A stretch of 33,805 nt of DNA, taken from the IMG/VR virus record IMGVR_UViG_3300032321_001491, positions 1 to 33,805 of that record; one strand, written 5' to 3'. Source of the stretch: a virus. Taxonomy: Duplodnaviria; Caudoviricetes. Positions 1 through 23,569 of this stretch are shown one piece after another. The translations under genes and the position numbers were made by a program. Position 1 is the first letter of the stretch, and every line of letters starts with the position of its first letter. The notes under the pieces are model-generated. The model was given only the letters and a program-made list of their open reading frames with translations. It was not told the origin of the DNA and made no database searches.

Positions 1-37
1 AATAATATATAGCTGATATATCACATAGTACATAAGG

Positions 38-88
38 AAAACACCCATTTATAGGCTTATTTTAAGCTTATTTTTGGGTGTTTTTTTT
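38..88 (+). terminator. Probable intrinsic terminator/hairpin in AT-rich non-coding left edge
   Basis: AAAACACCCA...TGGGTGTTTT inverted repeat with inner ATAGGCTTA/TAAGCTTAT, followed by T8. Confidence 0.5.
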
Positions 89-520
89 GTCTTTTTTTCA
101 CTAATTAACTATATTTTTAATAGAAATACGACCAAAATGGTTAACAATTGGGTAAAAAAGCTCATAATTTGAGAAGGTTTTAGATTCCCCTATGTAAATA
201 TCCTATTACTGGATATCTATAAGAATAATACAAACATATTCCCCCTCTTTTAGTTTATATAGGGGCGTAATACTATAACCGATTGATGACCCAGAATATT
301 GACGGGTTGATACATAGATTTAGGAATAGTATAAGTGTTTGATTACACTGATGTAATCTGAGGCGATAGGTAGAGAGATAGGCTAAGTCTTTCCCAGCCC
401 ATTTGATTAACAAAAATAAAATGTGCGTAAACTTTTACCTTCCTCCCTTAGATAAGTATTTATCTATGAGATTTTGGAATACATTTTGAATGCCATATGT
501 AATTTGTTAGTTATGATTAG

Positions 521-633
521 AAATATGTAATAAAGTTAAGCGATAAATAAACTATTTTTTGCGGGTGTACAATAACAAATGCATTTCTTATTGGGACACC
601 CGCCATCTTTATGATTAGAAAATGTATATTAAA
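521..633 (-). repeat. Degenerate repeat unit 0 (no -10, no downstream ORF)
   Basis: AAATATGTAATAAA box 521-534, 43-nt GCGGGTGT...ACACCCGC hairpin 561-603 at the same spacing as other units, second box 621-633. Confidence 0.7.
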
Positions 634-658
634 AATGGTAAAGGTAAGCGTTTAGATA

Positions 659-698
659 GCTGGCGTTCATTGTGCTTTAGCACGGGATGAACGCCAGC
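659..698 (+). repeat. Second hairpin (opposite orientation of the GC-TTTA-GC cap)
   Basis: GCTGGCGTTCAT-tGTGC-TTTA-GCACggg-ATGAACGCCAGC; near-identical copy at 1284-1323. Confidence 0.8.
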
Positions 699-733
699 AA
701 AAAAGAAGCCCCGTACCGAAGTACGGGGCTTCT
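699..733 (-). terminator. Intrinsic terminator cassette 1
   Basis: AGAAGCCCCGTAC-TTCG-GTACGGGGCTTCT plus U-tract on minus strand. Confidence 0.9.
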
Positions 734-754
734 ACACGCCTTACGGGGTAAGGG

Positions 755-1060
755 TTACTTGCGCTTGCCTTTGGCAGGCTTGGCGAGTGAGACTACGCAA
801 CGCCCGTCTGTAGTCCATTGAACGGACACAGCGACATTGTTGCGCTCTGCAATGGTTTCAACACGACCACGATACTTAGCCTTGTGGTTTGTGTAATCCT
901 CATCGTTTGGATTACCCTGTGCGTCATCCCAAATGAATGCGTCACCCTCAACCTTTGGGTCAAGGCTAACAATCTCGGCTTGTAGTGTCTCATCGTGGAA
1001 CGCTTCACGCCCACGCTTGGACAGCATGCCTTGCAGGTCATTGAGGTTTATCTTTGCCAT
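755..1060 (-). CDS. Hypothetical protein, 101 aa, basic C-terminal tail; paralog of 1380-1691
   Basis: ORF with GGGAG SD; about 60% identical to the neighbour by manual alignment. Confidence 0.9.
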   Translation of the reverse strand: MAKINLNDLQGMLSKRGREAFHDETLQAEIVSLDPKVEGDAFIWDDAQGNPNDEDYTNHKAKYRGRVETIAERNNVAVSVQWTTDGRCVVSLAKPAKGKRK

Positions 1061-1123
1061 AGGTATTCTCCCATGTTCAACACTCGGTATGAGTGTGTCT
1101 CGGCGGTATTGCCTTTGACATAA

Positions 1124-1257
1124 ATAAACATACCATTATGGTAAAAATGTGTATTAAAGTGAGTTTCGTATTGGTACCCCAACAGCGGGTGTGCAATTGC
1201 ATCGCTGAAGCGCAATCGCACGCCCGCCATGTGTGCGGAATAGAAATTTGTACTAAA
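1124..1257 (-). promoter_or_regulatory. Repeat unit 1: box + hairpin + box/extended -10 promoter
   Basis: Minus strand TTTAATACACATTTTT-N-ATGGTATGTTTAT (1124-1158); hairpin 1185-1227. Confidence 0.85.
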
Positions 1258-1283
1258 AACAGGAGATATGAGTGTGCTACGGA

Positions 1284-1323
1284 GCTGGCGTTCATTGTGC
1301 TTCAGCACGGGAAGAACGCCAGC
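1284..1323 (+). repeat. Second hairpin, copy 2
   Basis: GCTGGCGTTC-attGTGC-TTCA-GCACgggaa-GAACGCCAGC. Confidence 0.8.
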
Positions 1324-1358
1324 AAAAAAAAGACCCCGTGCCGAAGCACGGGGTCTTT
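1324..1358 (-). terminator. Intrinsic terminator cassette 2
   Basis: AAAGACCCCGTGC-TTCG-GCACGGGGTCTTT plus U-tract. Confidence 0.9.
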
Positions 1359-1379
1359 CACTAACCGCAGGAGATGCGG

Positions 1380-1691
1380 TTACTTGCGCTTGCCCTTGCC
1401 CTTTGCAGGCTTGGCGAGCGAGATAACCATCTGACCAGTGGTGAGCCACTGCACGCTGATGGCTACGCCGTTCTTATCGGCTAGTCCCTCAGCACGCCCA
1501 CGCCACATTGCTTTGTGGTTCGTGTAGTCCTCGCTGGTTGGGTCTCCTTGACTGCCCTCGTAGATGGTTGCATCACCATCTATCGCTGGGTCAAGGCTCA
1601 TGATTTCAGCCTCAAGTTCAGGGTTGTCATACGGGGCTCGCCCACGAGATGATAACTGACCTTTGAGGTCGTTCAGGTTTACCTTTGGCAT
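1380..1691 (-). CDS. Hypothetical protein, 103 aa; paralog of 755-1060
   Basis: ORF with AAGGAG SD; shared EDYTNHKA and SLAKPAKGK motifs. Confidence 0.9.
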   Translation of the reverse strand: MPKVNLNDLKGQLSSRGRAPYDNPELEAEIMSLDPAIDGDATIYEGSQGDPTSEDYTNHKAMWRGRAEGLADKNGVAISVQWLTTGQMVISLAKPAKGKGKRK

Positions 1692-1754
1692 TGCTTATCT
1701 CCTTGGTTATACACACCGCAGTGTGTTGCCTCAGCCTAATCGCTTTGGCATGAG

Positions 1755-1882
1755 ATAACCATACCATTATGATAAAAATATGTATTAAAGGTAGTTGCGT
1801 ATTGGTACCCCAATGGCTGGAGTGCAAATCTTTTGCTAAAGCAGATCCGCACACCAGCGGCAGTGAGAGAATGTGTATTAAA
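1755..1882 (-). promoter_or_regulatory. Repeat unit 2
   Basis: Promoter 1755-1789, hairpin 1816-1858, second box 1870-1882. Confidence 0.85.
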
Positions 1883-1922
1883 CTTAACCAACATGGTCCA
1901 GGGGTGGAGCTGGTGTTCAGAC

Positions 1923-1956
1923 AAAAAAAACTCCCCCCGCCCGAAGGCGAGGGGAG
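1923..1956 (-). terminator. Intrinsic terminator cassette 3
   Basis: CTCCCCTCGCC-TTCG-GGCGGGGGGAG plus U8. Confidence 0.9.
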
Positions 1957-1971
1957 CGGGGGAAGGAACAA

Positions 1972-2238
1972 TCACTCTGGTTGGAAGAGTGTGAGGTAAT
2001 CCATTTCCTCAATGGAGCCCTGAACATCTGTGAACAGTTGCTCAATGTCGCTCAACTTGTCCTGCACTTCGCCAATGAACTCTTGGCGCAGGGCAACCTT
2101 CATGTCAATCACGATGCTGAGCATCTGAGCGTTCATTTCGCCTCTGGTGATGAGGTTGTCTTTCAGTTGCATGGCAACTTTGACAACATCTTCGTGGGCA
2201 ATTGTGAGCGCCCTTGGGTGTGGTGGTAGGTGTGTCAT
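1972..2238 (-). CDS. Hypothetical helical, acidic protein, 88 aa (start MTHLPP)
   Basis: AAGGAG SD before ATG at 2238; the longer ORF-track start lies in the promoter. Confidence 0.85.
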   Translation of the reverse strand: MTHLPPHPRALTIAHEDVVKVAMQLKDNLITRGEMNAQMLSIVIDMKVALRQEFIGEVQDKLSDIEQLFTDVQGSIEEMDYLTLFQPE

Positions 2239-2281
2239 TGCTTTCTCCTTGTCAAGGGGATAGGAAGTGTCCTTGACATCT

Positions 2282-2415
2282 ATAAACATACCATGTCATC
2301 AAAAATGTGTATTCAACGGCATTGAGACCCTGTACCCTTTTCGTTGTCGTACAAATTGTTTGGTAAACCCAATCCGCACGCCAACGATTTCAAGAGAGAG
2401 AGAGCGTACACTCAA
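2282..2415 (-). promoter_or_regulatory. Repeat unit 3
   Basis: Promoter 2282-2316, hairpin 2341-2387 with compensatory GG-TTTA-CC cap. Confidence 0.85.
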
Positions 2416-2457
2416 CATATTGGATATACCTTTGCTATGGCGCTGGTGTTTGGGCAC

Positions 2458-2493
2458 AAAAAAAACCCCCCAAGCCCGTAGGCTTGAGGGGTT
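2458..2493 (-). terminator. Intrinsic terminator cassette 4
   Basis: AACCCCTCAAGCC-TACG-GGCTTGGGGGGTT plus U-tract. Confidence 0.9.
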
Positions 2494-2509
2494 CGCTGGA
2501 GAAGCGACC

Positions 2510-2767
2510 TTATTTCTTGGTGATTACTGGCACTACGAGTTTGCCCTCGGCGTACCAAATCACACCAACTTTCTTTTTTCCTGCAAGGCTGAGGATACGA
2601 GCACGAACACGGTTTTTGTTGGCTATCGTGTTCGGTACTGCCCTTTGTGTTGCGACAATATCACAAGTGTCGCTCACTGCCTTGACGCACTTGGCAAGGT
2701 AATTATCATGAAACTTTGGTCGCCCACGCCTCATTACCTTGACCGAGCCTTTAGGTACTCTACGCAT
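2510..2767 (-). CDS. Hypothetical highly basic protein, 85 aa (start MRRVPK)
   Basis: AAGGAG SD; Arg/Lys-rich, contains RRGRPK (AT-hook-like). Confidence 0.85.
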   Translation of the reverse strand: MRRVPKGSVKVMRRGRPKFHDNYLAKCVKAVSDTCDIVATQRAVPNTIANKNRVRARILSLAGKKKVGVIWYAEGKLVVPVITKK

Positions 2768-2811
2768 TTGCTTTCTCCTTGCCAGCGGGGTTAGGATAAT
2801 CGCTGACATGA

Positions 2812-2944
2812 ATAAACATAACATATCATGAAAAATGTGTATTCAATGTAGTTGAGAGTGTGTACCCCTTCGGCTGGTGCACAAAGCTTTTGCTGAAGCA
2901 GCTCCGTACACCATTCTTTTTGTGTTGTGAGAATATGTATTAAA
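2812..2944 (-). promoter_or_regulatory. Repeat unit 4
   Basis: Promoter 2812-2846, hairpin 2875-2913, second box ending 2944. Confidence 0.85.
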
Positions 2945-2978
2945 GAAAGCATGCCAGGATACGCAATAGGGTCGGAGT

Positions 2979-3010
2979 TTCCCCCTCGCACCCGTAGGCA
3001 CGAGGGGGAA
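2979..3010 (-). terminator. Hairpin terminator cassette 5 (no U-tract on minus strand)
   Basis: TTCCCCCTCGTGCC-TACG-GGTGCGAGGGGGAA directly after the stop. Confidence 0.7.
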
Positions 3011-3013
3011 GTT

Positions 3014-3232
3014 TTATGCTGATTTTGGGAAATTGTACTCTGTCCTGATAGTCTCTATCAGCCTGTCAATTTCCGAGTCAAGGAAACGGTGTATCTTATT
3101 CAGCCTTGCCGAAGTCTCGGACATACCTAGATACCTGCACATTACACTTGCCAGCATGATTCTCTTGCGGGTCTTATCTAGTTCCCTAGATATTTGCAGA
3201 ACCGCCGTTTTGCATTGGTAACGCTTGTCCAT
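3014..3232 (-). CDS. Hypothetical protein, 72 aa (start MDKRYQ)
   Basis: TAATG overlap with upstream ORF, GGAGG SD. Confidence 0.8.
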   Translation of the reverse strand: MDKRYQCKTAVLQISRELDKTRKRIMLASVMCRYLGMSETSARLNKIHRFLDSEIDRLIETIRTEYNFPKSA

Positions 3233-3453
3233 TATTTCGCCTCCGCAAACATCTTGTCCCAACACTCTGAATGGTAGCCATTCATGAGTTGCTCACGCTG
3301 GGCTGGGGTAAGAGTAGGGAAACAATTCTGAATGAGTTCGCCCTGCCAACTAGCCGTCTTGCCAAACTCCCATTCATCACGGGTCATTTGGACCTCGCCC
3401 CAATGCCCACATTCGGGGCAAGTCGGGGTTTGAATAGTAACCATTATTTTCAT
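3232..3453 (-). CDS. Hypothetical Zn-binding protein, 73 aa (CPEC...HSEC)
   Basis: GGAG SD, CxxC and HxxC motifs. Confidence 0.85.
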   Translation of the reverse strand: MKIMVTIQTPTCPECGHWGEVQMTRDEWEFGKTASWQGELIQNCFPTLTPAQREQLMNGYHSECWDKMFAEAK

Positions 3454-3493
3454 TGCTATCTCCAATCTGTCCTAGCCCGTTGCTAGGAACAAG

Positions 3494-3626
3494 ATAACCA
3501 TACCATCTGATGGAAAATGTGTATTAAAGAGAGTTGATAGTGTGTACCCCATTGACTGGTGTACAAATCTTTCGCTGAAGCAGCTTCGCACACCACCGTT
3601 CTTGTGTGATGAGAATGTGTATTAAA
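3494..3626 (-). promoter_or_regulatory. Repeat unit 5
   Basis: Promoter 3494-3528, hairpin 3557-3595, second box ending 3626. Confidence 0.85.
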
Positions 3627-3666
3627 GATAAAGGGTATGGTCATGTGAGAACGCTGGTGTTTAGGC

Positions 3667-3703
3667 AAAAAAAAACCCCCCAAGCCTTTCGGCTCAGGGG
3701 GTT
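3667..3703 (-). terminator. Intrinsic terminator cassette 6
   Basis: AACCCCCTGAGCC-GAAA-GGCTTGGGGGGTT plus U-tract. Confidence 0.9.
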
Positions 3704-3728
3704 CGTTTGTTTGGGGGGTGATATGTGC

Positions 3729-3965
3729 TTAGGCTTGAGGTCGGGTGACGGTAATTCCCAATTCCTCAGCGAGGGCTTTGGCTTCTTGGTTCTTCTTGGC
3801 TATTGCTTCCTCGTAACCCTTGAGCATCATTGCCAAGCCCTGAATGCCTTTCGTGTTGCCCTGCTGGGTAGCACGGTTGAGTGCGCCTGCAACAACCATG
3901 AATTGTTGTTCCAGTGTCAGTCTTGCGACTGGGTGGTTTGGACTAACTTCTGTCCGCTTTTTCAT
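3729..3965 (-). CDS. Hypothetical helical protein, 78 aa
   Basis: GGGAG SD; ORF fills the space between promoter and terminator. Confidence 0.85.
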   Translation of the reverse strand: MKKRTEVSPNHPVARLTLEQQFMVVAGALNRATQQGNTKGIQGLAMMLKGYEEAIAKKNQEAKALAEELGITVTRPQA

Positions 3966-4008
3966 TGCTATCTCCCTGTCAAGGTGTTAGGGAGTGTCCT
4001 TGACATAG

Positions 4009-4140
4009 ATAACCATACCATCTGATTAAAAATGTGTATTCAACTTAGTTGACAGTGTGTACCCCACAAGCTGGCGTACAATGCTTTGGCTAAAGCAGCC
4101 TTGCACACCATCGCAAGGCGATAAAGAAATGTATATTAAA
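4009..4140 (-). promoter_or_regulatory. Repeat unit 6
   Basis: Promoter 4009-4043, hairpin 4072-4110, second box ending 4140. Confidence 0.85.
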
Positions 4141-4174
4141 AGAGAGACATGTGTAGGTGCTGAAGGGTCGGGGT

Positions 4175-4202
4175 TCTCCCCCCGCCCGTAGGCGAGGGGA
4201 GA
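4175..4202 (-). terminator. Hairpin terminator cassette 7 (no U-tract)
   Basis: TCTCCCCTCGCC-TACG-GGCGGGGGGAGA after the stop. Confidence 0.7.
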
Positions 4203-4207
4203 TGGTA

Positions 4208-4489
4208 TCACTCGTAGATACGATACCTGTCCTGTTGCTTCTCCAAGACATGAGCCTGACGGTACTTGTCAAACACTTCGCACCAAACTTTTGCGAGTGT
4301 CAATGAGCCTGCAACGAAGCGCTCTACCGAGTGCAACATTTTGCCGTTCTCATCAGTGACATAGCACCAAGCCATGTAGTTTCCAGAACCGTCAAAAGCC
4401 TTGTAGACTTCGTACATATGCCAATATGTCCAAGCGTACTCGGCAGTGCCGTTTCTTACCCACTTCATAGTGACTAAAGGAGTGGTCAT
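4208..4489 (-). CDS. Hypothetical aromatic-rich protein, 93 aa
   Basis: GAAAGGA SD; fills the cassette. Confidence 0.85.
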   Translation of the reverse strand: MTTPLVTMKWVRNGTAEYAWTYWHMYEVYKAFDGSGNYMAWCYVTDENGKMLHSVERFVAGSLTLAKVWCEVFDKYRQAHVLEKQQDRYRIYE

Positions 4490-4531
4490 GAGGTTATCCT
4501 TTCTATCGGGGTTAGGTGTGTTCCGATGTCA

Positions 4532-4665
4532 ATAACCATACCATGTGAGGAAAAATGTGTATTCAATCTCGTTCATGCTCTGATCCTCAACAGTTGGTGT
4601 GCAATTGCTATGCTGAAGCGCTCTTGCCCACCACCCGACCGAGTGTGTGTTGAGAGTGTATTAAA
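4532..4665 (-). promoter_or_regulatory. Repeat unit 7
   Basis: Promoter 4532-4566, hairpin 4595-4633, second box ending 4665. Confidence 0.85.
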
Positions 4666-4705
4666 AACTATTGGCATAGGCATGGAGTCGGGCGGGTGTT
4701 GAGAC

Positions 4706-4751
4706 AAAAAAAAGAACCCCAAGCGCCTCAGGGGGGAGGCACTTGGGGTTC
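4706..4751 (-). terminator. Intrinsic terminator cassette 8
   Basis: GAACCCCAAGTGCCTC...GAGGCGCTTGGGGTTC plus U8. Confidence 0.9.
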
Positions 4752-4765
4752 GGGTTAGGTGCTTG

Positions 4766-4849
4766 TTATAAGCCAACCACGCATTGGAATATCATCCAAG
4801 CGAGGCAAGCGAACACAATGTACGCACCAATTTCAGGCAGGCGCTTCAT
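4766..4849 (-). CDS. Small membrane peptide, 27 aa (MKRLPEIGAYIVFACLAWMIFQCVVGL); not in ORF track
   Basis: ATGA overlap with the upstream stop; single hydrophobic helix; ends just before the terminator. Confidence 0.65.
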   Translation of the reverse strand: MKRLPEIGAYIVFACLAWMIFQCVVGL

Positions 4850-5073
4850 TGAGATACCAGCCTGTATTCCAGCACCTCGTAGAAGTTACCTGACGGGTGA
4901 TACTGGGCATTGACGGTAATCTCAACGATACCACCGTCAAGTTTGAGCCTGAACACTTGGTATGCCCAAGTGTCGTCAACCTCAACGGGGATAGTGTTGG
5001 ATAGGATAAGGTTCAGTGCACGCTTGCCGAGCAAGGCACGCTGAGCCGTTTCGCTTGTGTCTATGGTAGCCAT
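4846..5073 (-). CDS. Hypothetical protein, 75 aa (start MATIDT)
   Basis: GAGGA SD before ATG at 5073. Confidence 0.85.
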   Translation of the reverse strand: MATIDTSETAQRALLGKRALNLILSNTIPVEVDDTWAYQVFRLKLDGGIVEITVNAQYHPSGNFYEVLEYRLVSQ

Positions 5074-5110
5074 AGTTTCCTCTCTGTCTCGGCGGGTTGC
5101 CTTGACTGAT

Positions 5111-5239
5111 ATAACCATACCATACGATAGAAAATGTGTATTCAACCTCGTTGATATGATGAACCCCATTGCCTGGTGTACAATTGCTTTGCTGAAGCGC
5201 CCTTGCCCACCATCGCATGTGTGAAGTGAGTGCATTCAA
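5111..5239 (-). promoter_or_regulatory. Repeat unit 8
   Basis: Promoter 5111-5145, hairpin 5174-5212, second box ending 5239. Confidence 0.85.
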
Positions 5240-5280
5240 AGAGAAGAAACTCCGTGTGCAGATGAGTCGGAGTTCAGGGC

Positions 5281-5324
5281 AAAAAAAAAGCCCCCAAGCC
5301 TCGGAGGGTGAGGCTTGAGGGCTT
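5281..5324 (-). terminator. Intrinsic terminator cassette 9
   Basis: AAGCCCTCAAGCCTC...GAGGCTTGGGGGCTT plus U-tract. Confidence 0.9.
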
Positions 5325-5341
5325 GTCGGGGCATTGAGTTA

Positions 5342-5629
5342 CTAGAACTCTATTGGTGCTTCAATTGCTGGTATCTGCACTGCGTTGCGATGTTCTTGCA
5401 TCGCACGCTGGTCGGCTTCCAAGCCGTACTGAATCATTTGCGCACGATGGTCGCAATCTTGCACCATGCGTGTCAGATGTTCAGCGGTTCGGTTCCAACC
5501 GCTTGCTCTGCAGTATGCGCTTGCGTTTGTGAAACGCAAAGCGGTGTTCTGCAGTTGCTCTACCAAGTTTGCAACCATTCGTGGAATGTTGTCTCGCTCG
5601 GTTTCGCTGGGTGTTTGATAATGTGCCAT
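5342..5629 (-). CDS. Hypothetical helical protein, 95 aa (start MAHYQT)
   Basis: GGAGGT SD before ATG at 5629. Confidence 0.85.
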   Translation of the reverse strand: MAHYQTPSETERDNIPRMVANLVEQLQNTALRFTNASAYCRASGWNRTAEHLTRMVQDCDHRAQMIQYGLEADQRAMQEHRNAVQIPAIEAPIEF

Positions 5630-5687
5630 GATGAACCTCCAGTTCATTTGTTGTTGGCGTTTGTGTTTATCGTTCACCCCGACAAGA

Positions 5688-5790
5688 ACAACCATACCAT
5701 CTGGAAGAAAATGTGTATTCAATCTTGTTCAAGCTCGCATCCCCAATCACTGGTGTACAATTCTTTTGCTGAAGCAGAATCGCACTCCAG
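5688..5790 (-). promoter_or_regulatory. Repeat unit 9 (first in transcription order)
   Basis: Promoter 5688-5722, hairpin 5750-5790. Confidence 0.85.
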
Positions 5791-5921
5791 CGATTGACCC
5801 TAGTCAACACAGGTATTTCGTATGCGGCTAAAAACAAAAGTAACATTCATAAAATATATACTCAAATTTTGGATAGGAAGGTTCAAGGCGGGTATAGGAG
5901 TATAAAAGTTTGGGGGAGAAT

Positions 5922-6011
5922 AAAAAAGACCGCTAGAGATGCACATGCCCCTGGGGGTTAAGCCCAGAGGCATCTGCACCTATAACGGTCCTAAGGTTAG
6001 CTTTCGCTGCC
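5922..6011 (-). ncRNA. Putative ~90-nt structured RNA with segment antisense to 23S rRNA
   Basis: TATACT -10 at 6018-6023, GAAA-tetraloop mini-hairpin, ~26-bp G-U-containing stem, U6 tail; 5980-5997 matches the 23S/I-CeuI site sequence. Confidence 0.6.
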
Positions 6012-6065
6012 TTTATCAGTATACACAGATACTAATTTGCGGGGTAGTAATAATGATTGGGTGTA

Positions 6066-6239
6066 TTACCGAGAGTTACGGTAGAAGCCATGACCTTTGA
6101 AGTTGATTCCTGGCGGGGAGAATAATTGTCTCAGAGGAAGGTCGCAGACTGGACACTTATCCTTAGAGAGCTCCTCAGTGACTTTCCTAGTCTCTTCGTA
6201 GATGTGCTGGTTATTACAGATGTATTCATATGTTGGCAT
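6066..6239 (-). CDS. FmdB-family zinc-ribbon protein, 57 aa
   Basis: MPTYEYxC...H...CPxC...FKGxGFY signature; leaderless after TGaTATACT. Confidence 0.85.
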   Translation of the reverse strand: MPTYEYICNNQHIYEETRKVTEELSKDKCPVCDLPLRQLFSPPGINFKGHGFYRNSR

Positions 6240-6304
6240 GTTTACCAGTATATCATGGCGAACAACAGTTAGTACTTTTCGTGCCACTCGTGCTAACATA
6301 GAGC

Positions 6305-6901
6305 GTGTCTACTGATTACAATATGTGGCTAAGAGCCGCTCATGACCACCTGTGGGTGTTTGACAAGCTGATTGTCGCAAAGAAGGCAGGTCATGTGTGC
6401 GGTCCAAGGGGTATGCCCGTTCCAAAACCCAATTTTTATATGGTGAGACCAATTTCCAACTTTGAGGGAATGGGTCTTGGAGCTCGCAAGGTCTGGTTGG
6501 AAGATTCTACGCTTGAATTACACCCTGGAGAGTTCTGGTGTGAGTTCTTTACTGGGGATCACATTAGCGTTGATTACCGCCTGTACGATCCTGTGTTGAT
6601 TGTTAAAGGTACTCCACACCCAAATGCACCCCACTCTAAATTTATAAAATGGGAGAAGCTAGAAACACCGATCCCACAACCTGCCATGTTGGGCAAGATA
6701 CCACTCTATTACAAGACAATCAACTGTGAGTTTATTGGTGGTAAGTTAATTGAGATACATTTACGAGGCAATCCTGATTTTATCTATGGCAATAGCATTG
6801 CAATACCTGTGTGGGAAGGTGAAAAAATTAATCCACCGCAATCAATGAGATTTGTGGAAGCTAAAGACATCAATAGAATTGGGTTTTATATAGACAATTA
6901 A
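6305..6901 (+). CDS. Conserved phage hypothetical protein (possible ATP-grasp-like fold)
   Basis: 198-aa ORF, GTG start after TGcTAACAT; VRP..N..GMG, EFF.G.H.SVD and NCEFIGGKLIEIHLR motifs. Confidence 0.7.
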   Translation: MSTDYNMWLRAAHDHLWVFDKLIVAKKAGHVCGPRGMPVPKPNFYMVRPISNFEGMGLGARKVWLEDSTLELHPGEFWCEFFTGDHISVDYRLYDPVLIVKGTPHPNAPHSKFIKWEKLETPIPQPAMLGKIPLYYKTINCEFIGGKLIEIHLRGNPDFIYGNSIAIPVWEGEKINPPQSMRFVEAKDINRIGFYIDN

Positions 6902-6919
6902 TATATGATACAATTAAGC

Positions 6920-7324
6920 ATGTACGAATATCATGTAAAGAAAGTTTTAAAAGTAGTAGACGGAGACACTATAGATGTGGACATTGATCTGGGGTTTAAT
7001 ATCTCGTATACTCAAAGAGTCCGACTCGCTGGAATTGACACGCCTGAGTCACGCACCAAGGATGCCAAGGAAAAAGCATTAGGGCTTGAAGTCAAAGAGA
7101 AGCTCAAGAAAGCTATTGATGCCGCCAAAGATGTGGTGGTCAAAACCGAGCTTCCCGATAGCTCCGAGAAATACGGGCGCATCTTGGGCTGGGTATATCT
7201 GGATGGAGCCGCCAAGTCAATCAACGAGCAACTCATTGACGAGGGTTACGCTTGGGGATACATGGGCGAGACCAAGGTTAAGGACTTTGACGCTCTTTTG
7301 AAGAAGCGGCAAGCGAACAAGTAA
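6920..7324 (+). CDS. Thermonuclease (SNase) family nuclease
   Basis: KVVDGDTI, VRLAGIDTPE, KYGRILG, LIDEGYA motifs; leaderless start MYEY after TGaTACAAT. Confidence 0.92.
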   Translation: MYEYHVKKVLKVVDGDTIDVDIDLGFNISYTQRVRLAGIDTPESRTKDAKEKALGLEVKEKLKKAIDAAKDVVVKTELPDSSEKYGRILGWVYLDGAAKSINEQLIDEGYAWGYMGETKVKDFDALLKKRQANK

Positions 7325-7499
7325 TTTTAAATTCTTGATTACCGTCACTTTGTTGGTTAGTATTTACTCGTTTTTCGCCACTTTTAAAAAGCCGCCGATT
7401 ACGATACACCTCAATTAGAACAATTGCTGTAAGTATGTGGATTGACATGGCTATGAGAAACATCCAAGCTAGTTGAGTCATCCACCAAACCCAAATCAT
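7278..7499 (-). CDS. Hypothetical membrane protein
   Basis: ATGA-coupled to upstream ORF, hydrophobic N-half; 3' end overlaps the nuclease gene. Confidence 0.5.
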   Translation of the reverse strand: MIWVWWMTQLAWMFLIAMSIHILTAIVLIEVYRNRRLFKSGEKRVNTNQQSDGNQEFKITCSLAASSKERQSP

Positions 7500-7684
7500 T
7501 CCATCCCCTTGAATTCAGGAAAATATTTTTCAACAGCCCTTTCCCGACTAATCCCAAAATCAGCACACCACTGTTTAAGTAAACCATTGGCGATATCCCG
7601 CCATCTATCCCGTTCCGCCTCCAGCTGCTTGATTTCGTTAAAAGTCTCTTTGTCCATTTTAATTATTCTATTTTTATCCATCAC
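7496..7684 (-). CDS. Hypothetical protein, ~62 aa
   Basis: Coupled to both flanking ORFs; contains the LEAERDRWR coiled motif common in phage proteins. Confidence 0.7.
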   Translation of the reverse strand: MMDKNRIIKMDKETFNEIKQLEAERDRWRDIANGLLKQWCADFGISRERAVEKYFPEFKGME

Positions 7685-8238
7685 AATACTTTAAAGTCTA
7701 CATTAAGTATAAACCTAAATGGATTCTTAACAGGATTAGACGCAGCGTGGATTTGGCTACCATCAAAAATTACAGCACGACCTTTTTTCGGATAAACCTC
7801 ATCAGTGACTCTGTATGACTCATCAAAGAAATATGTGGGACCATCTGATGGGTTAATATAGTAAAGCAAAACTTTATGATTAACTGGATCTCCATTATCA
7901 TACTGAAGATCAATGTGAGGAACTTGATGCTCATAGTTCATCATTGGTGGATAGGGAAAAGTCAAATTCACTTTAGCCCTGATCAACTCAATTTTGCCAA
8001 ATTCAATTTCAAGTTTTTTTGTAAACTTCCTGATAACTGGAAGATGTGGTGATGCTTTATCTGATTCTGATTCGTAAAGATGATGTGACATCTGCAGCGG
8101 AGCATGTGTCCACCTTTGCGCTACCTCGCTTGAGAAGCGATGGCTACGAAACAAACGATAAGGAAAATTTTCAGTACTGACATATTCCTCAAAGTCCTCC
8201 TGTTCTTGTTGTGTAATGAAGTTGTCTATAATTTTCAT
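7681..8238 (-). CDS. 2OG-Fe(II) oxygenase (start MKIIDNF)
   Basis: PHID...LLYYINPSDGPT...HAASNP...R; the ORF-track N-terminal extension is the tRNA. Confidence 0.88.
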   Translation of the reverse strand: MKIIDNFITQQEQEDFEEYVSTENFPYRLFRSHRFSSEVAQRWTHAPLQMSHHLYESESDKASPHLPVIRKFTKKLEIEFGKIELIRAKVNLTFPYPPMMNYEHQVPHIDLQYDNGDPVNHKVLLYYINPSDGPTYFFDESYRVTDEVYPKKGRAVIFDGSQIHAASNPVKNPFRFILNVDFKVL

Positions 8239-8313
8239 GGCTGGCGAGGTAGGGCTTGAACCTACGACCCAGGGATTAACAGTCCCTTGCTCTGCCAACT
8301 GAGCTACTCGCCA
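8238..8313 (-). tRNA. tRNA-Asn (GTT), encoded CCA
   Basis: TGGCGAG acceptor, GCTCAGTTGGCAGAGC D arm, AGGGA-CTGTTAA-TCCCT, GTAGG-TTCAAGC-CCTAC, GCCA end; 76 nt. Confidence 0.96.
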
Positions 8314-8322
8314 TCGTACTAC

Positions 8323-8403
8323 TTACTTTAGCAGCAAAATAGCAATTGTGATTGCATGAAGCGTAAAATAAATTGCGTGTGTAATTTTATCTTGTTTTGA
8401 CAC
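8323..8403 (-). CDS. Small hydrophobic peptide, 26 aa (MSKQDKITHAIYFTLHAITIAILLLK); not in ORF track
   Basis: GTG start with GAAAGGA SD; fills the gap between oxygenase and tRNA. Confidence 0.55.
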   Translation of the reverse strand: MSKQDKITHAIYFTLHAITIAILLLK

Positions 8404-8405
8404 TT

Positions 8406-9074
8406 TTATCCTTTCTTAATTGGAGTATTCCAAACTTCAATTAAATTTTGTTTTTTTCTTTCTAAATCTTCTGGAGTATTGTAACTAGGAAATGTCCCTG
8501 GATTTTTTTCAATTGGGAGCATAAAGTTTGAATATGCGTAACGAATGCCAGATGTGACTTCCTTTACGCCATGCTCACAATCGGTATGAGCCCCATGAAT
8601 AACAAGATCTCCTGGCTGCACTGCATATTCTAAACCTAGCCTTGGGTAGTATGTTTCACCACCAGTAAATTCTCCAAAATAAACAACTAGCCCATAATGA
8701 ATAATACAGCAAGTATTCCATCTATCAAGCTGAGTCAACTCCTCTTCCATCCCCTCGCCTGGGCTATCTTGGTGCAAAAACATTCCACCATCTCCAGGTC
8801 TAATGACTTGAAGAGCCAGATTGGGATGAATTATATATTCTGGAGCAATCAAATCGCTTGCTGAATTCCATATGTCAATTAAATGAGGGATAAGCGGGGT
8901 AGTCTTATCTCTATACCAATCAACTTTTGCATACTGTTCTCTTAAATAAGTTTTTTCTTTTGTATATTCTTTAATAACTATATTAATTTGTTCAACTTTT
9001 TCTTTTGGTATAAAATTTTTATAAACAAAAACTTTATCTGCTAGTTTTGTAATGCCTGGGTGGTCAAAGAACAT
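8406..9074 (-). CDS. 2OG-Fe(II) oxygenase, prolyl-4-hydroxylase-like
   Basis: HQD...FTGGETYYP...PGDLVIH...HGVKEVTSGIRY. Confidence 0.9.
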   Translation of the reverse strand: MFFDHPGITKLADKVFVYKNFIPKEKVEQINIVIKEYTKEKTYLREQYAKVDWYRDKTTPLIPHLIDIWNSASDLIAPEYIIHPNLALQVIRPGDGGMFLHQDSPGEGMEEELTQLDRWNTCCIIHYGLVVYFGEFTGGETYYPRLGLEYAVQPGDLVIHGAHTDCEHGVKEVTSGIRYAYSNFMLPIEKNPGTFPSYNTPEDLERKKQNLIEVWNTPIKKG

Positions 9075-9851: not shown

Positions 9852-9853
9852 AG

Positions 9854-9925
9854 AGCCCCCTCTCGGACTTGAACCGAGGACCGCTTCATTACAAGTGAAG
9901 TGCTCTACCGCTGAGCTAAAGGGGC
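9854..9925 (-). tRNA. tRNA-Thr (TGT), no encoded CCA (CTA follows)
   Basis: GCCCCTT acceptor, CTTCA-CTTGTAA-TGAAG anticodon arm, CTCGG-TTCAAGT-CCGAG T arm. Confidence 0.95.
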
Positions 9926-21190: not shown

Positions 21191-23569
21191 ATGTCAGATT
21201 TTAATATTTCATTCCCAATTGATATGATTAAGAGGGAACAACGCATTGTTGTAGGCATCGCTACAGCCGACAATGTTGATAAAGCTGGCGATATTGTGGA
21301 CTTTGAAGCATCCAAAGAAGCTTTTGCAAACTGGGGTGGAAACATCCGAGAGATGCATGCTCCTATTGCCGTTGGTAAGGCAATTAATTATGAGCCAGTC
21401 GTGCTTAAAGATAAAGATGGTGTATCTTATAATGCTTTTAAAGTTGAAGCTTATATTTCAAAAGGTGCAGAAGATACTTGGCAAAAAGTTCTTGATGGCA
21501 CACTTCGTTCTTTTTCTATTGGCGGTAAAGTAATTGAAAAATCTGAATCCGCAGATAAATTTTTTCATGGTAAGCCAGTTAATGTTATTAAAAAATATGT
21601 TCTTGGAGAGCTAAGCCTCGTTGATAACCCAGCAAACGCTTTGGCTATTATTGATATTATTAAAATGGATGGAGAAGGGTTGTTTAAGTATGCTCTTGAT
21701 TGCGACTTAGATTGCCAGTTAGCAAAGGCTAAACAACCGCTCAAAGACCCCAAAGGCGGGCTGACTGCTGCAGGTAGAAGGCATTTTAAACAAACTGAAG
21801 GTGCTAATCTTAAGCCAGGCGTTAAAGGTGCAGCCGACACTCCAGAAAAAATGCGCCGCAAAGGTTCATTCCTTACAAGATTTTTTACCAACCCGTCTGG
21901 TCCAATGAAAAAACCAAATGGTGAACCAACACGCCTTGCGCTTTCAGCAGCAGCATGGGGTGAACCTGTTCCTCAGAATGCATCAGATGCTGCAAAGCTT
22001 GCTGCTAAAGGCAGAAGACTTCTTGAGAGATATGCAAATACTAAAGAAAAAGCAGATTTTGAAAATTCATTTGAAGACGCTCTTCTTGAAGAAATTATTG
22101 ATCTTTTGAAAGATGATGATTGTGATTGTGGGTGTGGTGGTCTTGAAAAAGATGCATCAGTTACAACTGACAACGCTGAATCAAAAAATCCATCAAGAAA
22201 TGGAATCATTTCACCAACTGTTCCTCCATTCCCATCTGGTTCGCCAAAATTTAAACCAAAGAAAAAAATAAAAAAAGAAGGAAGTCCATGTTGGGATGGC
22301 TATCACCAAGAAGGTGAAAAGAAAGGTAAGAATGGAAATATGGTTCCAAACTGTGTTCCTGATAATACTAACAAAAAGGAGAAAGACATGAAAGGACAAG
22401 ATCTTATTAACAAAGCAACAGGTCTCGTTCCAACCCTCCAGGAGTTGTTGGCAAACACAGTTGTGTTTTATTTTGCAGCCCACAGAGCACATTGGAATGT
22501 TGAGGGCGTTGATTTTACAGAATACCACGAATTATTTGCAAAAATTTATGAAGATGCTTATGGATCAATTGACCCAATGGCTGAGCTTATTAGAAAAATG
22601 GGAGCATTCCCGCCATCGCTAGACGAATCAGATGACATGTCCAGTATTGAAGATGATTCAGCAACATCAGATTCTAGAGAACTTGCTATTGATCTTTATG
22701 TAAAAAATCATGGTTTGATCACAATGCTCAAAGCCGCATTTAATGTAGCAAACTCGGAAAATGAACAAGGTGTTGCTAATTTTATTGCAGAAAGAATTGA
22801 TATGCATCAAACATGGGATTGGCAATTGACAGCTTCTTTAAGAGCATCTGGTGTAGAAATCCCATCACTCATTGAAGATACTGATGAGACTGACATGGAA
22901 AATGCTGGGAGTATTATGAATTTGATTAATCAAGTTTTTGCTAATTCAACAAAATCATATGATTCAACACAAAATATTGAAGAATTTGATACAATTAGTA
23001 AAATGAACGAAAACGAAGAAGTTATTATTAAGCAAGACTCTGAATTGCAATTAAATAATACTTATGATAAGCTCTCTGACATGAATGAGCAACAAGTCAA
23101 TAAACTTAATCTTTTGAAGAAGTTTGTTGGTTGGTTGTTCCAAGATGTCGCAGAAACAACTTCAACTTCCGTTGAAGTAAGTGGAAACACACAGGAGGAA
23201 GAAATGGACATTAATGTTCTTAAAGATGCTCTGAGTGCTGTTGTTGATGAAAAACTGGCTAGTTTTGCTACTTCAATCAAGGAAGAAGTTGAAGCCTCTG
23301 TTCAGGAAAAAATTGAAGCAGTCGCAAAGGGTTTTGAGGTTCAGAGTTCTGAACTTCAACAAAAGCTGGAAACAGCAGAGTTGGCTCTCGCTGAGCAAAC
23401 AGAAAAAGTTGAGGCATTTGCCGCAGCTGGTGCTGTAAAAAAGAGCGTGGACCCAGAAGATGATGAGGAAGTAGCAGAGGAAGCACTAGCTAAGTCTGCA
23501 CCTACTTCATTCTGGAGAAATACATATCTGCCACAGGAGTTAATCAACTCCCTAGGTTATAGGTCATAA
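21191..23569 (+). CDS. Prohead protease fused to DUF6321-like domain, Dps/ferritin domain and C-terminal scaffold
   Basis: N-terminal IREMH...FSIGG...ELSLVDNPAN; KDPKGGLTAAGR; HWNVEG..F...HELF...YE...D..AE.I (Dps); acidic coiled-coil C-terminus; lies just before the capsid gene. Confidence 0.88.
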   Translation: MSDFNISFPIDMIKREQRIVVGIATADNVDKAGDIVDFEASKEAFANWGGNIREMHAPIAVGKAINYEPVVLKDKDGVSYNAFKVEAYISKGAEDTWQKVLDGTLRSFSIGGKVIEKSESADKFFHGKPVNVIKKYVLGELSLVDNPANALAIIDIIKMDGEGLFKYALDCDLDCQLAKAKQPLKDPKGGLTAAGRRHFKQTEGANLKPGVKGAADTPEKMRRKGSFLTRFFTNPSGPMKKPNGEPTRLALSAAAWGEPVPQNASDAAKLAAKGRRLLERYANTKEKADFENSFEDALLEEIIDLLKDDDCDCGCGGLEKDASVTTDNAESKNPSRNGIISPTVPPFPSGSPKFKPKKKIKKEGSPCWDGYHQEGEKKGKNGNMVPNCVPDNTNKKEKDMKGQDLINKATGLVPTLQELLANTVVFYFAAHRAHWNVEGVDFTEYHELFAKIYEDAYGSIDPMAELIRKMGAFPPSLDESDDMSSIEDDSATSDSRELAIDLYVKNHGLITMLKAAFNVANSENEQGVANFIAERIDMHQTWDWQLTASLRASGVEIPSLIEDTDETDMENAGSIMNLINQVFANSTKSYDSTQNIEEFDTISKMNENEEVIIKQDSELQLNNTYDKLSDMNEQQVNKLNLLKKFVGWLFQDVAETTSTSVEVSGNTQEEEMDINVLKDALSAVVDEKLASFATSIKEEVEASVQEKIEAVAKGFEVQSSELQQKLETAELALAEQTEKVEAFAAAGAVKKSVDPEDDEEVAEEALAKSAPTSFWRNTYLPQELINSLGYRS
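23045..23073 (+). promoter_or_regulatory. Internal promoter inside the protease gene
   Basis: TTGCAA-N17-TAAGCT with TG extension; in-frame ATG 7 nt later (23081). Confidence 0.55.

What the first reader, a model, noticed from the sequence alone, without database searches (positions are those of the whole stretch)
1185..5790. Covarying, strand-asymmetric ~40-nt hairpin at an invariant distance upstream of every cassette promoter
Seen: on the minus strand every unit folds as an 8-11-bp outer stem, a 6-bp inner stem, a 3-nt 3'-side bulge and a G(C/G)-TT(C/T)A-(G/C)C cap. Examples: unit 1 GCGGGCGTGC GATTGC GC-TTCA-GC gat GCAATT GCACACCCGC; unit 3 CGTTGGCGTGC GGATTG GG-TTTA-CC aaa CAATTT GTACGACAACG; unit 4 TGGTGTAC GGAGCT GC-TTCA-GC aaa AGCTTT GTGCACCA. 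Stem changes are compensatory, and most non-Watson-Crick positions are G-T on the minus strand (A-C on plus). The cap octamer starts exactly 46 nt from the promoter-block edge in all nine units (1204, 1835, 2362, 2892, 3574, 4089, 4612, 5191, 5768). The hairpin lies between the previous terminator and the next promoter, so it should not be in the main mRNAs. Inference: selection acts on a folded single strand. It could be an ssDNA or cruciform recognition site, analogous to attC bottom strands or IS200/IS605 and REP hairpins with extrahelical bases, or a short RNA from read-through. The fixed spacing favours a DNA-level role.
Basis: partly seen in the sequence, partly recalled or inferred. Interest (0 to 1): 0.85.

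Follow-up and report, generated by a model that had tools for sequence, protein, structure and literature searches.

The report
Typed DNA hairpins beside phage promoters
A freshwater phage that likely infects actinobacteria places a conserved, compensatorily evolving hairpin at a fixed distance from a short DNA box before each of nine small gene cassettes; related phages switch the hairpin tip array-wide together with one small phage protein, so the pair is likely an undescribed lock-and-key control system that would act on DNA.

Summary
The hairpin is real. All nine caps sit at the stated positions, 46 nt from the box edge. Among 158 distinct copies from related phage contigs the stems covary (19 and 5 tree-mapped compensatory events against 0-3 in slid controls), and mismatches favour the minus strand. 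Corrections: G-T is about half of the window's non-Watson-Crick pairs (16 of 33); the invariant spacing belongs to the box-proximal arm, not the cap; the TTYA cap is one of several lineage-specific tips. New: a second box per unit is followed at the same spacing by a lone arm (89 of 91, 72 without partner); 28 of 28 complete second hairpins carry the lineage's own tip on the opposite strand; tip type follows the proteins of the first cassettes across two genome backbones, while other cassette genes cross types at 92-100% identity. Best reading: a bipartite DNA site plus folded-strand tip read by a phage protein (0.45); RNA hairpin in read-through transcripts is the main rival (0.25). Not attC, REP/IS200 or an Rfam family. 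The scan earlier reported this PeSL-like array on other DNA and left the hairpin unexplained. No binding is shown.

The parts
1184..1228 (-). A hairpin 1 (type I tip GC-TTCA-GC)
1815..1859 (-). A hairpin 2 (GC-TTTA-GC)
2342..2386 (-). A hairpin 3 (GG-TTTA-CC, compensatory cap)
2872..2916 (-). A hairpin 4
3554..3598 (-). A hairpin 5
4069..4113 (-). A hairpin 6
4592..4636 (-). A hairpin 7
5171..5215 (-). A hairpin 8
5748..5792 (-). A hairpin 9
1146..1158 (-). Box A of unit 1 (TT(G/T)AATACA(C/T)ATT on minus); further copies start at 1777, 2304, 2834, 3516, 4031, 4554, 5133, 5710; predicted -38 to -26 of the cassette promoter
1127..1132 (-). Predicted -10 hexamer TATG(G/T)T, 13 nt after box A; further copies 1758, 2285, 2815, 3497, 4012, 4535, 5114, 5691; predicted starts 1120, 1751, 2278, 2808, 3490, 4005, 4528, 5107, 5684
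   Evidence: TAnnnT at 13-14 nt in 156 of 158 A boxes
1245..1257 (.). Box B (second copy of the box, no -10 behind it); others at 621, 1870, 2932, 3614, 4128, 4653, degenerate near 2402 and 5227
659..698 (+). Complete B hairpin, tip GC-TTTA-GC on the plus strand, beside the first family-A gene
1284..1323 (+). Complete B hairpin, tip GC-TTCA-GC on the plus strand, beside the second family-A gene
1909..1918 (+). Lone arm (half site) 26 nt after box B; others near 2971, 3653, 4167, 4692, 5266
522..603 (.). Left-end module: box at 522-534 and a hairpin at 561-603 with the same outer arms and spacing but another apex; no promoter
755..1060 (-). Family A1 gene, 101 aa, RGR motif, predicted alpha-beta-alpha-beta-beta fold; candidate reader of the hairpin
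1380..1691 (-). Family A1 paralogue, 103 aa
2510..2767 (-). Divergent family A member (A2), 85 aa
704..733 (-). Intrinsic terminator-like hairpin with T run; others 1328-1359, 1930-1957, 2463-2494, 3673-3704, 4714-4751, 5288-5324; stems without T run at 2982-3007 and 4176-4201

Best explanation
Each hairpin is part of a two-part site (a 13-bp box, 29 bp of variable spacer, then an arm G-x-x-G-x-x-C-x-A) repeated before every cassette, its folding is shown by compensatory changes, and it is likely read at the DNA level by a phage protein, likely the small family-A1 protein encoded by the first cassettes, which would control all cassette promoters together. Shown from sequence: fixed box-to-arm spacing with or without a partner arm; a covarying stem; a tip whose type is uniform within an array, occurs on either strand, and follows the A1 proteins across genome backbones. 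Inferred: box and proximal arm are bound as double-stranded DNA on one rigid surface overlapping the -26 to -76 region of the promoter; the distal arm lets one strand rebuild the arm as a stem and display the tip when the strands part (negative supercoiling behind strong promoters, an R-loop from read-through, or replication and recombination), as a relaxase reads the proximal arm in duplex DNA and the whole hairpin in single-stranded DNA.
For: Spacing: G+30/G+33/C+36/A+38 in 156 of 158 A copies; a pattern that allowed gaps of 27-31 returned 106 of 148 distinct hits at 29. Independent test: box B was picked by a box-only weight matrix, and G stands at +30 in 89 of 91; 72 of 91 have no partner arm and 2 of 91 have a -10, so the arm works as plain duplex sequence. 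A distant lineage keeps box + 30 nt + hairpin, away from promoters. Folding: 175 double-change cells against 62.0 shuffled and 23-82 slid (85 copies); 75 against 30.1 and 8-19 (38 copies); 19 and 5 single-branch compensatory events against 0-3 and 0. Proximal arm more conserved than distal (15.6 vs 13.4 and 18.2 vs 15.6 bits), the pattern described for TrwC (PMC4176350, passages). Either strand: 28 of 28 complete B hairpins carry the array's own tip type on the plus strand (8 TTYA, 19 GNNTA, 1 GAACA). No RNA-stable UUCG or GNRA loop in 158 tips and a T run after 3 of 158, though neighbouring terminators use such loops. Partner: no array mixes type I with other tips (0 of 38 multi-unit patterns, partly redundant); orthologous units keep outer stems and 97-100% identical genes but switch tips; G006 (type I) is 94% identical to G005 (other tip) by median ORF yet its A1 proteins are 67/71% to type-I G001 and 44/53% to G005; G004 shows the mirror case; A1 tree needs 3 changes for 4 tip groups, shuffled mean 11.6. 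Weak hint: RNA contigs of two studies stop at 1103 with no loose end while probable-DNA runs go on to 1146 and 1176.
Against: No binding, folding or transcription was measured. G-T and G-A tolerance on one strand (G-T 100 vs A-C 26; purine-purine 185 vs pyrimidine-pyrimidine 7) fits RNA at least as well as DNA, and makes cruciform extrusion of the A copies costly, so the route to a single strand is unexplained. A1 genes lie inside the array: block transfer of frames plus A1, followed by gene exchange, gives the same co-segregation, and only two backbone pairs were tested. WhiB and its neighbour also diverge in both pairs and lean to type in G006 (52 vs 44%, 57 vs 41%). The type-I A1 clade has support 81/64 only. 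A1 has no Pfam or named PHROG match and only weak fold likeness (best Z 5.8, rmsd 2.8, 59 aligned; several R3H domains at Z 3.8-4.7). Number of covarying pairs alone did not beat the shuffles (38/500, 68/500), and the trees come from the same alignments. In the distant lineage stems are near perfect, without bulge or strand bias, so the tip is not universal. Pentaloop subtypes do mix in two arrays (L154, L180).
Confidence: 0.45

Rival explanations
1. The hairpin acts as RNA in read-through transcripts: a phage protein binds the tip and stops, antiterminates or processes transcription (like boxB with N or Nun, or an RNase III site; recalled). A copies would catch read-through from the cassette upstream, B copies plus-strand transcription entering from the left.
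For: RNA is the simplest source of one folded strand; mismatch spectrum fits; two upstream terminators lack a T run; GNNTA resembles a boxB pentaloop (recalled); complete B hairpins lie at the left end where flanking genes converge on the array; R3H-like fold hits include RNA binders.
Against: It does not explain a gap-free 29-nt distance to a box that lies 3' of A copies but 5' of B copies in their RNAs, nor 72 lone arms at that distance. No stable RNA tetraloops, almost no U tracts. No Rfam match.
Confidence: 0.25
2. The element is a single-strand signal for replication or recombination (priming, nicking or loading site) that rides along with the duplicated promoter frame, for example during copying of a long terminal repeat.
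For: Proximal-arm logic as at relaxase sites; modules without promoter at 522-603 and in the distant lineage; the phage encodes primase, helicase, SSB, RecA, RuvC; related BE phages keep such gene rows in 11-kb terminal repeats (PMC5764925, whole text).
Against: No Y1, tyrosine or serine recombinase found; primase, helicase and SSB were not seen to track tip type, and RecA and polymerase are 96-98% identical between types; one site per promoter at fixed phase is not needed for priming. A terminal repeat is not shown for this phage.
Confidence: 0.14
3. It is a double-stranded palindromic operator; covariation comes from palindrome-correcting mutation, not from selection on a fold.
For: Four invariant symmetric positions; lone arms; perfect, strand-neutral palindromes and TGTAANNTTACA repeats in the distant lineage.
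Against: Palindrome correction would erase mismatches, yet G-A is kept at one pair in 52 of 85 copies and G-T exceeds A-C by 100 to 26 and 58 to 5; a one-sided bulge and a covarying apical stem are conserved.
Confidence: 0.1
4. It is an attC-like recombination site that moves the cassettes.
For: Imperfect hairpin, one-sided unpaired bases, strand bias, an array that gains and loses genes.
Against: 0 of 158 with RYYYAAC/GTTRRRY; no integrase, resolvase or Y1 enzyme in 5 records each, 3 of them at least 90% complete; gene order largely collinear; exchange points in 81 recombinant-like pairs fall variously near the leader, promoter or B region, with the hairpin going with either neighbour.
Confidence: 0.04

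Closest known systems
PeSL promoter-terminator cassettes of T4-type phages (PMC2839356, passages; PMC4122927, first third of text)
   Same: Row of small unknown genes, each in a shared promoter/terminator frame, gained and lost by recombination at the frames.
   Different: PeSL stem-loops are terminators at varying positions. Here terminators are separate, and the extra hairpin has a fixed phase, typed tip, inverted copies and lone arms.
N4 virion RNA polymerase hairpin promoters (PMC4496689, passages)
   Same: Strand-asymmetric DNA hairpin at fixed distance from the start; conserved and freely covarying stem positions; read by a phage protein.
   Different: N4 hairpin is short, on the template strand at -11, with a 3-nt loop, and is the promoter. 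Here it is about 45 nt, centred at -88, favoured on the non-template strand, beside an ordinary -10 element.
Relaxase nic-site inverted repeat IR2 of R388 TrwC (PMC4176350, passages)
   Same: Proximal arm read in duplex DNA and more conserved; distal arm tolerant, needed to rebuild the stem in single-stranded DNA.
   Different: TrwC ignores the loop; here the tip is conserved and typed. No HUH enzyme or nick site found; many copies, tied to promoters.
Integron attC sites (PMC5027507, passages)
   Same: Imperfect single-strand hairpin with unpaired bases and strand bias between gene cassettes.
   Different: No R-box core pair, no integrase, cassettes carry their own promoters, length nearly constant (45 nt).
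Terminal-repeat gene rows of Streptomyces cluster BE phages (PMC5764925, whole text; Jay2Jay record)
   Same: Related capsid (54% identity); leftward row of small genes with repeated promoters; an Lsr2-like regulator gene inside the row.
   Different: Jay2Jay has only a short GTCCGG palindrome at variable distance (43-63 nt from the -10, 9 of 12 promoters); the covariance model finds nothing there.

Membership tests
attC | RYYYAAC / GTTRRRY core pair at the hairpin foot | tested here: not met
   0 of 158, both strands (feature)
attC | Integron integrase (tyrosine recombinase) at hand | tested here: not met
   PF00589 in 0 of 5 records, 0 of 3 near-complete; control rang in 14 of 14. A host enzyme is not excluded.
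attC | Promoterless cassettes | tested here: not met
   -10 hexamer in 156 of 158 units
attC | Strand-biased imperfect hairpin with unpaired bases | tested here: met
IS200/IS605 ends and REP | Y1 HUH transposase (TnpA or RAYT) | tested here: not met
   PF01797 in 0 of 5 records; control rang in 6 of 14
IS200/IS605 ends and REP | GTAG/GGAG guide at the 5' foot (motif recalled) | tested here: not met
   0 of 158 on the folding strand; 38 of 158 on the other strand, inside the arm
N4-type hairpin promoter | Template-strand hairpin with C-GNA-G tip centred at -11 | tested here: not met
   hairpin centred at -88; C-GNA-G on the template strand in 11 of 158
N4-type hairpin promoter | Phage single-subunit RNA polymerase | tested here: inconclusive
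   PF14700 rang nowhere, controls included; none among 96 of 138 G001 ORFs scanned in Pfam or 39 in PHROGs
PeSL cassettes (the array, not the hairpin) | Repeated promoter + stem-loop + ribosome site frame around small variable genes | tested here: met
PeSL cassettes (the array, not the hairpin) | The stem-loop is a transcription terminator | tested here: inconclusive
   T run after 3 of 158 A hairpins; T-less termination cannot be tested by sequence
PeSL cassettes (the array, not the hairpin) | Mini-circles from recombination between frames | not tested
   joints in DNA runs were not examined
Known structured RNA (Rfam 15) | Match at gathering score | tested here: not met
   window 1-8500: only tRNA passes; no listed hit overlaps an A hairpin
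R3H / winged-helix nucleic-acid binders (family A1 protein) | Fold | tested here: inconclusive
   best Z 5.8, several R3H domains Z 3.8-4.7; Foldseek none at E<=0.001 in PDB
Lsr2-like AT-hook proteins (family A1 protein) | RGR motif | tested here: met
   R16, G17 at least 90% and R18 invariant in 36 sequences; motif named in PMC8612146 passage. No Lsr2 Pfam match, so not filed as Lsr2.

The most novel reading that the evidence does not exclude
A phage lock-and-key system in which one small protein family reads the folded tip of a single DNA strand at 10-20 sites around its own early genes, in either orientation, phased to a duplex box; tip and protein switch type together across whole arrays while cargo genes move freely between types, giving each lineage private control of (or immunity over) its early-gene array.
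Probability: 0.3. Interest if true: 0.87.

Novelty: new variant of a known kind. Interest (0 to 1): 0.64.

Why it matters
Protein-read DNA hairpins at promoters are known mainly from phage N4. An array-wide, typed version with a candidate reader of no known family would be a new way for a phage to coordinate many host-polymerase promoters, and natural orthogonal pairs (type I and pentaloop types) make it testable at once with synthetic oligos and one 100-residue protein. If the hairpin is RNA, it is still an undescribed phage motif with 158 natural variants and clear covariation. The array itself is ordinary.

Tried and rejected
Rfam: nothing at gathering score but tRNA. blastn of 600-5900 against 50,697 phage records: no match. 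A first pattern with a miscounted gap found nothing. Sigma-70 scan missed the cassette promoters (11 sites vs 9.0 by chance) and its plus-strand TTGACA hits are the 3' arm of a leader hairpin whose matching -10 is not conserved. Box B as a promoter for a hairpin RNA: -10 in 2 of 91. CRISPR-like spacers: the 26-nt A spacers resemble each other (CCC at +19 to +21). RNA runs X18 and X19 (share of words 0.12 and 0.08): none of 8 and 6 contigs overlaps an A hairpin; contigs end 13-19 nt short of predicted starts at 1103, 1103, 1732, 2795, 3471, 5671; lack of cover is no evidence against a short RNA. Joints in DNA runs were not examined. Cultured BE phage Jay2Jay has no fixed-phase hairpin. Family A: no Pfam, named PHROG or solved-structure relative (one source name 'precorrin-2 methylase' on a short hit was disregarded); atlas hits under 0.9 and unnamed. 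G001 ORF 82094-82597 starts like family A but profile probability is 4%. Loop labels printed for pentaloops are mis-registered; only the type-I versus other split is used. Literature searches for this element found no description: (listings only); subscription papers and supplements were not seen.

Full report
Setting. The window is part of a tailed phage genome: portal, capsid, ribonucleotide reductase, capsid 54% identical to Streptomyces cluster BE phages. Holder runs are mostly freshwater metagenomes, and relatives carry WhiB, which rang only in Corynebacterium among 14 controls, so an actinobacterial host is inferred. Bases 500-5900 hold nine minus-strand cassettes, each with a predicted -10 element, small gene(s) and a terminator-like stem.

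The observation. The minus strand folds better in 9 of 9 units as RNA and 8 of 9 as DNA; the 2-bp cap is not in the energy minimum of six units. Of 33 non-Watson-Crick pairs in the window 16 are G-T, 12 G-A, 1 A-C.

Relatives. The pattern allowed 27-31 nt between box and arm; 106 of 148 distinct hits had 29. G+30, G+33, C+36 and A+38 hold in 156 of 158. Tips come in types: type I (39 copies, the window's: GC-TTYA-GC with a 3-nt 3' bulge) and pentaloop types (119 copies, mostly a 5-bp stem with GNNTA loop and an AA bulge; a form one base shorter; a GANCA form). Types I and II have the same length and the same 19-position 5' arm.

Covariation. I aligned 85 of the 119 (left out: 34 shorter or differently registered copies) and 38 of the 39 (left out: the copy with a 2-nt bulge). 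Double-change cells: 175 against 62.0 shuffled and 23-82 slid; 75 against 30.1 and 8-19. The count of covarying pairs alone was not beyond the shuffles (38/500, 68/500). Mapped on trees of the same alignments, 19 and 5 compensatory events fall on single branches, against 0-3 and 0 for slid pairs. The four top corrected mutual-information pairs in the larger set are stem pairs. On the minus strand G-T outnumbers A-C by 100 to 26 and 58 to 5, and purine-purine mismatches outnumber pyrimidine-pyrimidine by 185 to 7. A folded minus strand is under selection.

First, each unit has a second box 92-104 nt away (a few further). Chosen by a box-only matrix (91 of 154 units passed), it is followed by G at +30 in 89 of 91, G+33 in 78, T+34 in 83; 72 have no partner arm and 2 have a -10. 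So box plus arm is a rigid two-part sequence that needs no hairpin. Second, where the second arm is completed into a hairpin, beside family-A genes, the tip is the array's own type but on the plus strand: 8 of 8 in type-I arrays, 19 of 19 in GNNTA arrays, 1 of 1 in the GAACA array. Third, a module without promoter closes the array on the left (7 distinct copies). Fourth, a distant lineage with homologous family-A genes keeps box + 30 nt + hairpin, with near-perfect stems, no strand bias, and about 250 nt from the nearest gene's promoter region.

A candidate reader. No array mixes type I with other tips (0 of 38 multi-unit patterns, some redundant). Phages whose cassette genes are 97-100% identical keep orthologous outer stems but differ in every tip. 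Two backbone groups each contain both tip classes: G006 (type I) has median 94% ORF identity to G005 (pentaloop; 44 ORFs) and 60% to G001 (type I); G004 (pentaloop) has 82% to G001 and 55% to G005. A1 proteins follow the tip, not the backbone: G006 to G001 67 and 71%, to G005 44 and 53%; G004 to G007 65 and 73%, to G005 59 and 66%, to G001 51 and 49%. A tree of 25 A1 proteins needs the minimum 3 changes for 4 tip groups, type-I clade support 81/64, while cassette families C, J, F, M, B cross types at 92-100%. WhiB, its neighbour and one other ORF lean the same way in G006 but not clearly in G004. A1 has an RGR motif and a confident model (pLDDT 86.5; two main helices, three strands) with only weak likeness to R3H and winged-helix domains. 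Linkage can explain the co-segregation; it is a lead.

DNA or RNA. For DNA: gap-free phasing through the least conserved segment, lone arms, a box that would lie on opposite sides of A and B hairpins in RNA, no UUCG or GNRA tips and 3 of 158 T runs, and a proximal arm more conserved than the distal one, as for TrwC. For RNA: it is the easiest single strand, the mismatches suit it and would hinder a cruciform, and two terminators lack T runs. Two metatranscriptomes show contigs over cassette genes, both stopping at 1103, 17 nt short of the predicted start, where probable-DNA runs continue; a weak hint that the main RNA starts at the box-A promoter. I put 0.45 on a DNA element read by a phage protein for array-wide control, 0.25 on RNA, 0.14 on a replication or recombination signal, 0.10 on a plain operator, 0.04 on attC-like.

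Not a recombination site of known kind. No attC core; no tyrosine recombinase, resolvase or Y1 enzyme; RecA, RuvC, SSB and exonucleases are present; order is largely collinear with gains, losses and a few moves; exchange points are scattered over the frame.

Novelty. The array is PeSL-like (PMC2839356, passages; PMC4122927, first third) and four earlier notes of this scan say so for relatives, leaving the hairpin unexplained. Six literature searches (listings) and Rfam gave no description of the hairpin; subscription papers and supplements were not seen. Closest working analogies are N4 hairpin promoters (PMC4496689, passages) and relaxase inverted repeats (PMC4176350, passages); it is a member of neither. 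Verdict: real, undescribed structured element within a known kind of array; interest 0.64.

Noticed in passing
window 1085-1120, 2248-2280 and the other cassette leaders: Each 5' leader holds its own hairpin just before the ribosome site (for example TGTCAAGG...CCTTGACA), with compensatory changes between orthologues. Two RNA contigs end inside the first one at 1103.
   Followed up: no
L006 versus L039, L046, L238; Near-identity between lineages of unlike tip type often starts right at the predicted transcription start and runs through the gene, so the exchanged unit resembles the transcript while the frame stays lineage-specific.
   Followed up: partly
L028 2400-8200, L030 2600-7500: The distant lineage coats its intergenic DNA with TGTAANNTTACA palindromes at a 16-bp period, and has a plus-strand gene inside the array.
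   Followed up: partly
window boxes A; G001 103691-104131: The best -35-like hexamer (TTGAAT/TTTAAT) lies 20-21 nt from the -10, a long spacer as at MerR-type promoters (recalled); G001 encodes a MerR-family protein and two WhiB proteins.
   Followed up: no
G001 77444-78136, 72972-73313, 82094-83412: WhiB, its neighbour and three unknown genes are 42-53% identical between phages that share 80-98% in most genes: a set of fast-diverging possible regulators.
   Followed up: partly
G001 71400 and 83803; window 5853: Three weaker boxes outside the units, without a -10 at the usual place, with arm-like sequence 25-28 nt behind.
   Followed up: partly
window 1-38; L008 start: The window and one independent contig begin within 38 nt of each other left of the array, which may mark a genome end or repeat boundary.
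   Followed up: no
window 21191-23569: Prohead-protease-like ORF fused to DUF6321 and a ferritin-like domain; the G001 orthologue is shorter, 607 aa.
   Followed up: no
window 8238-8313 and 9853-9925: tRNA-Asn and tRNA-Thr genes.
   Followed up: no
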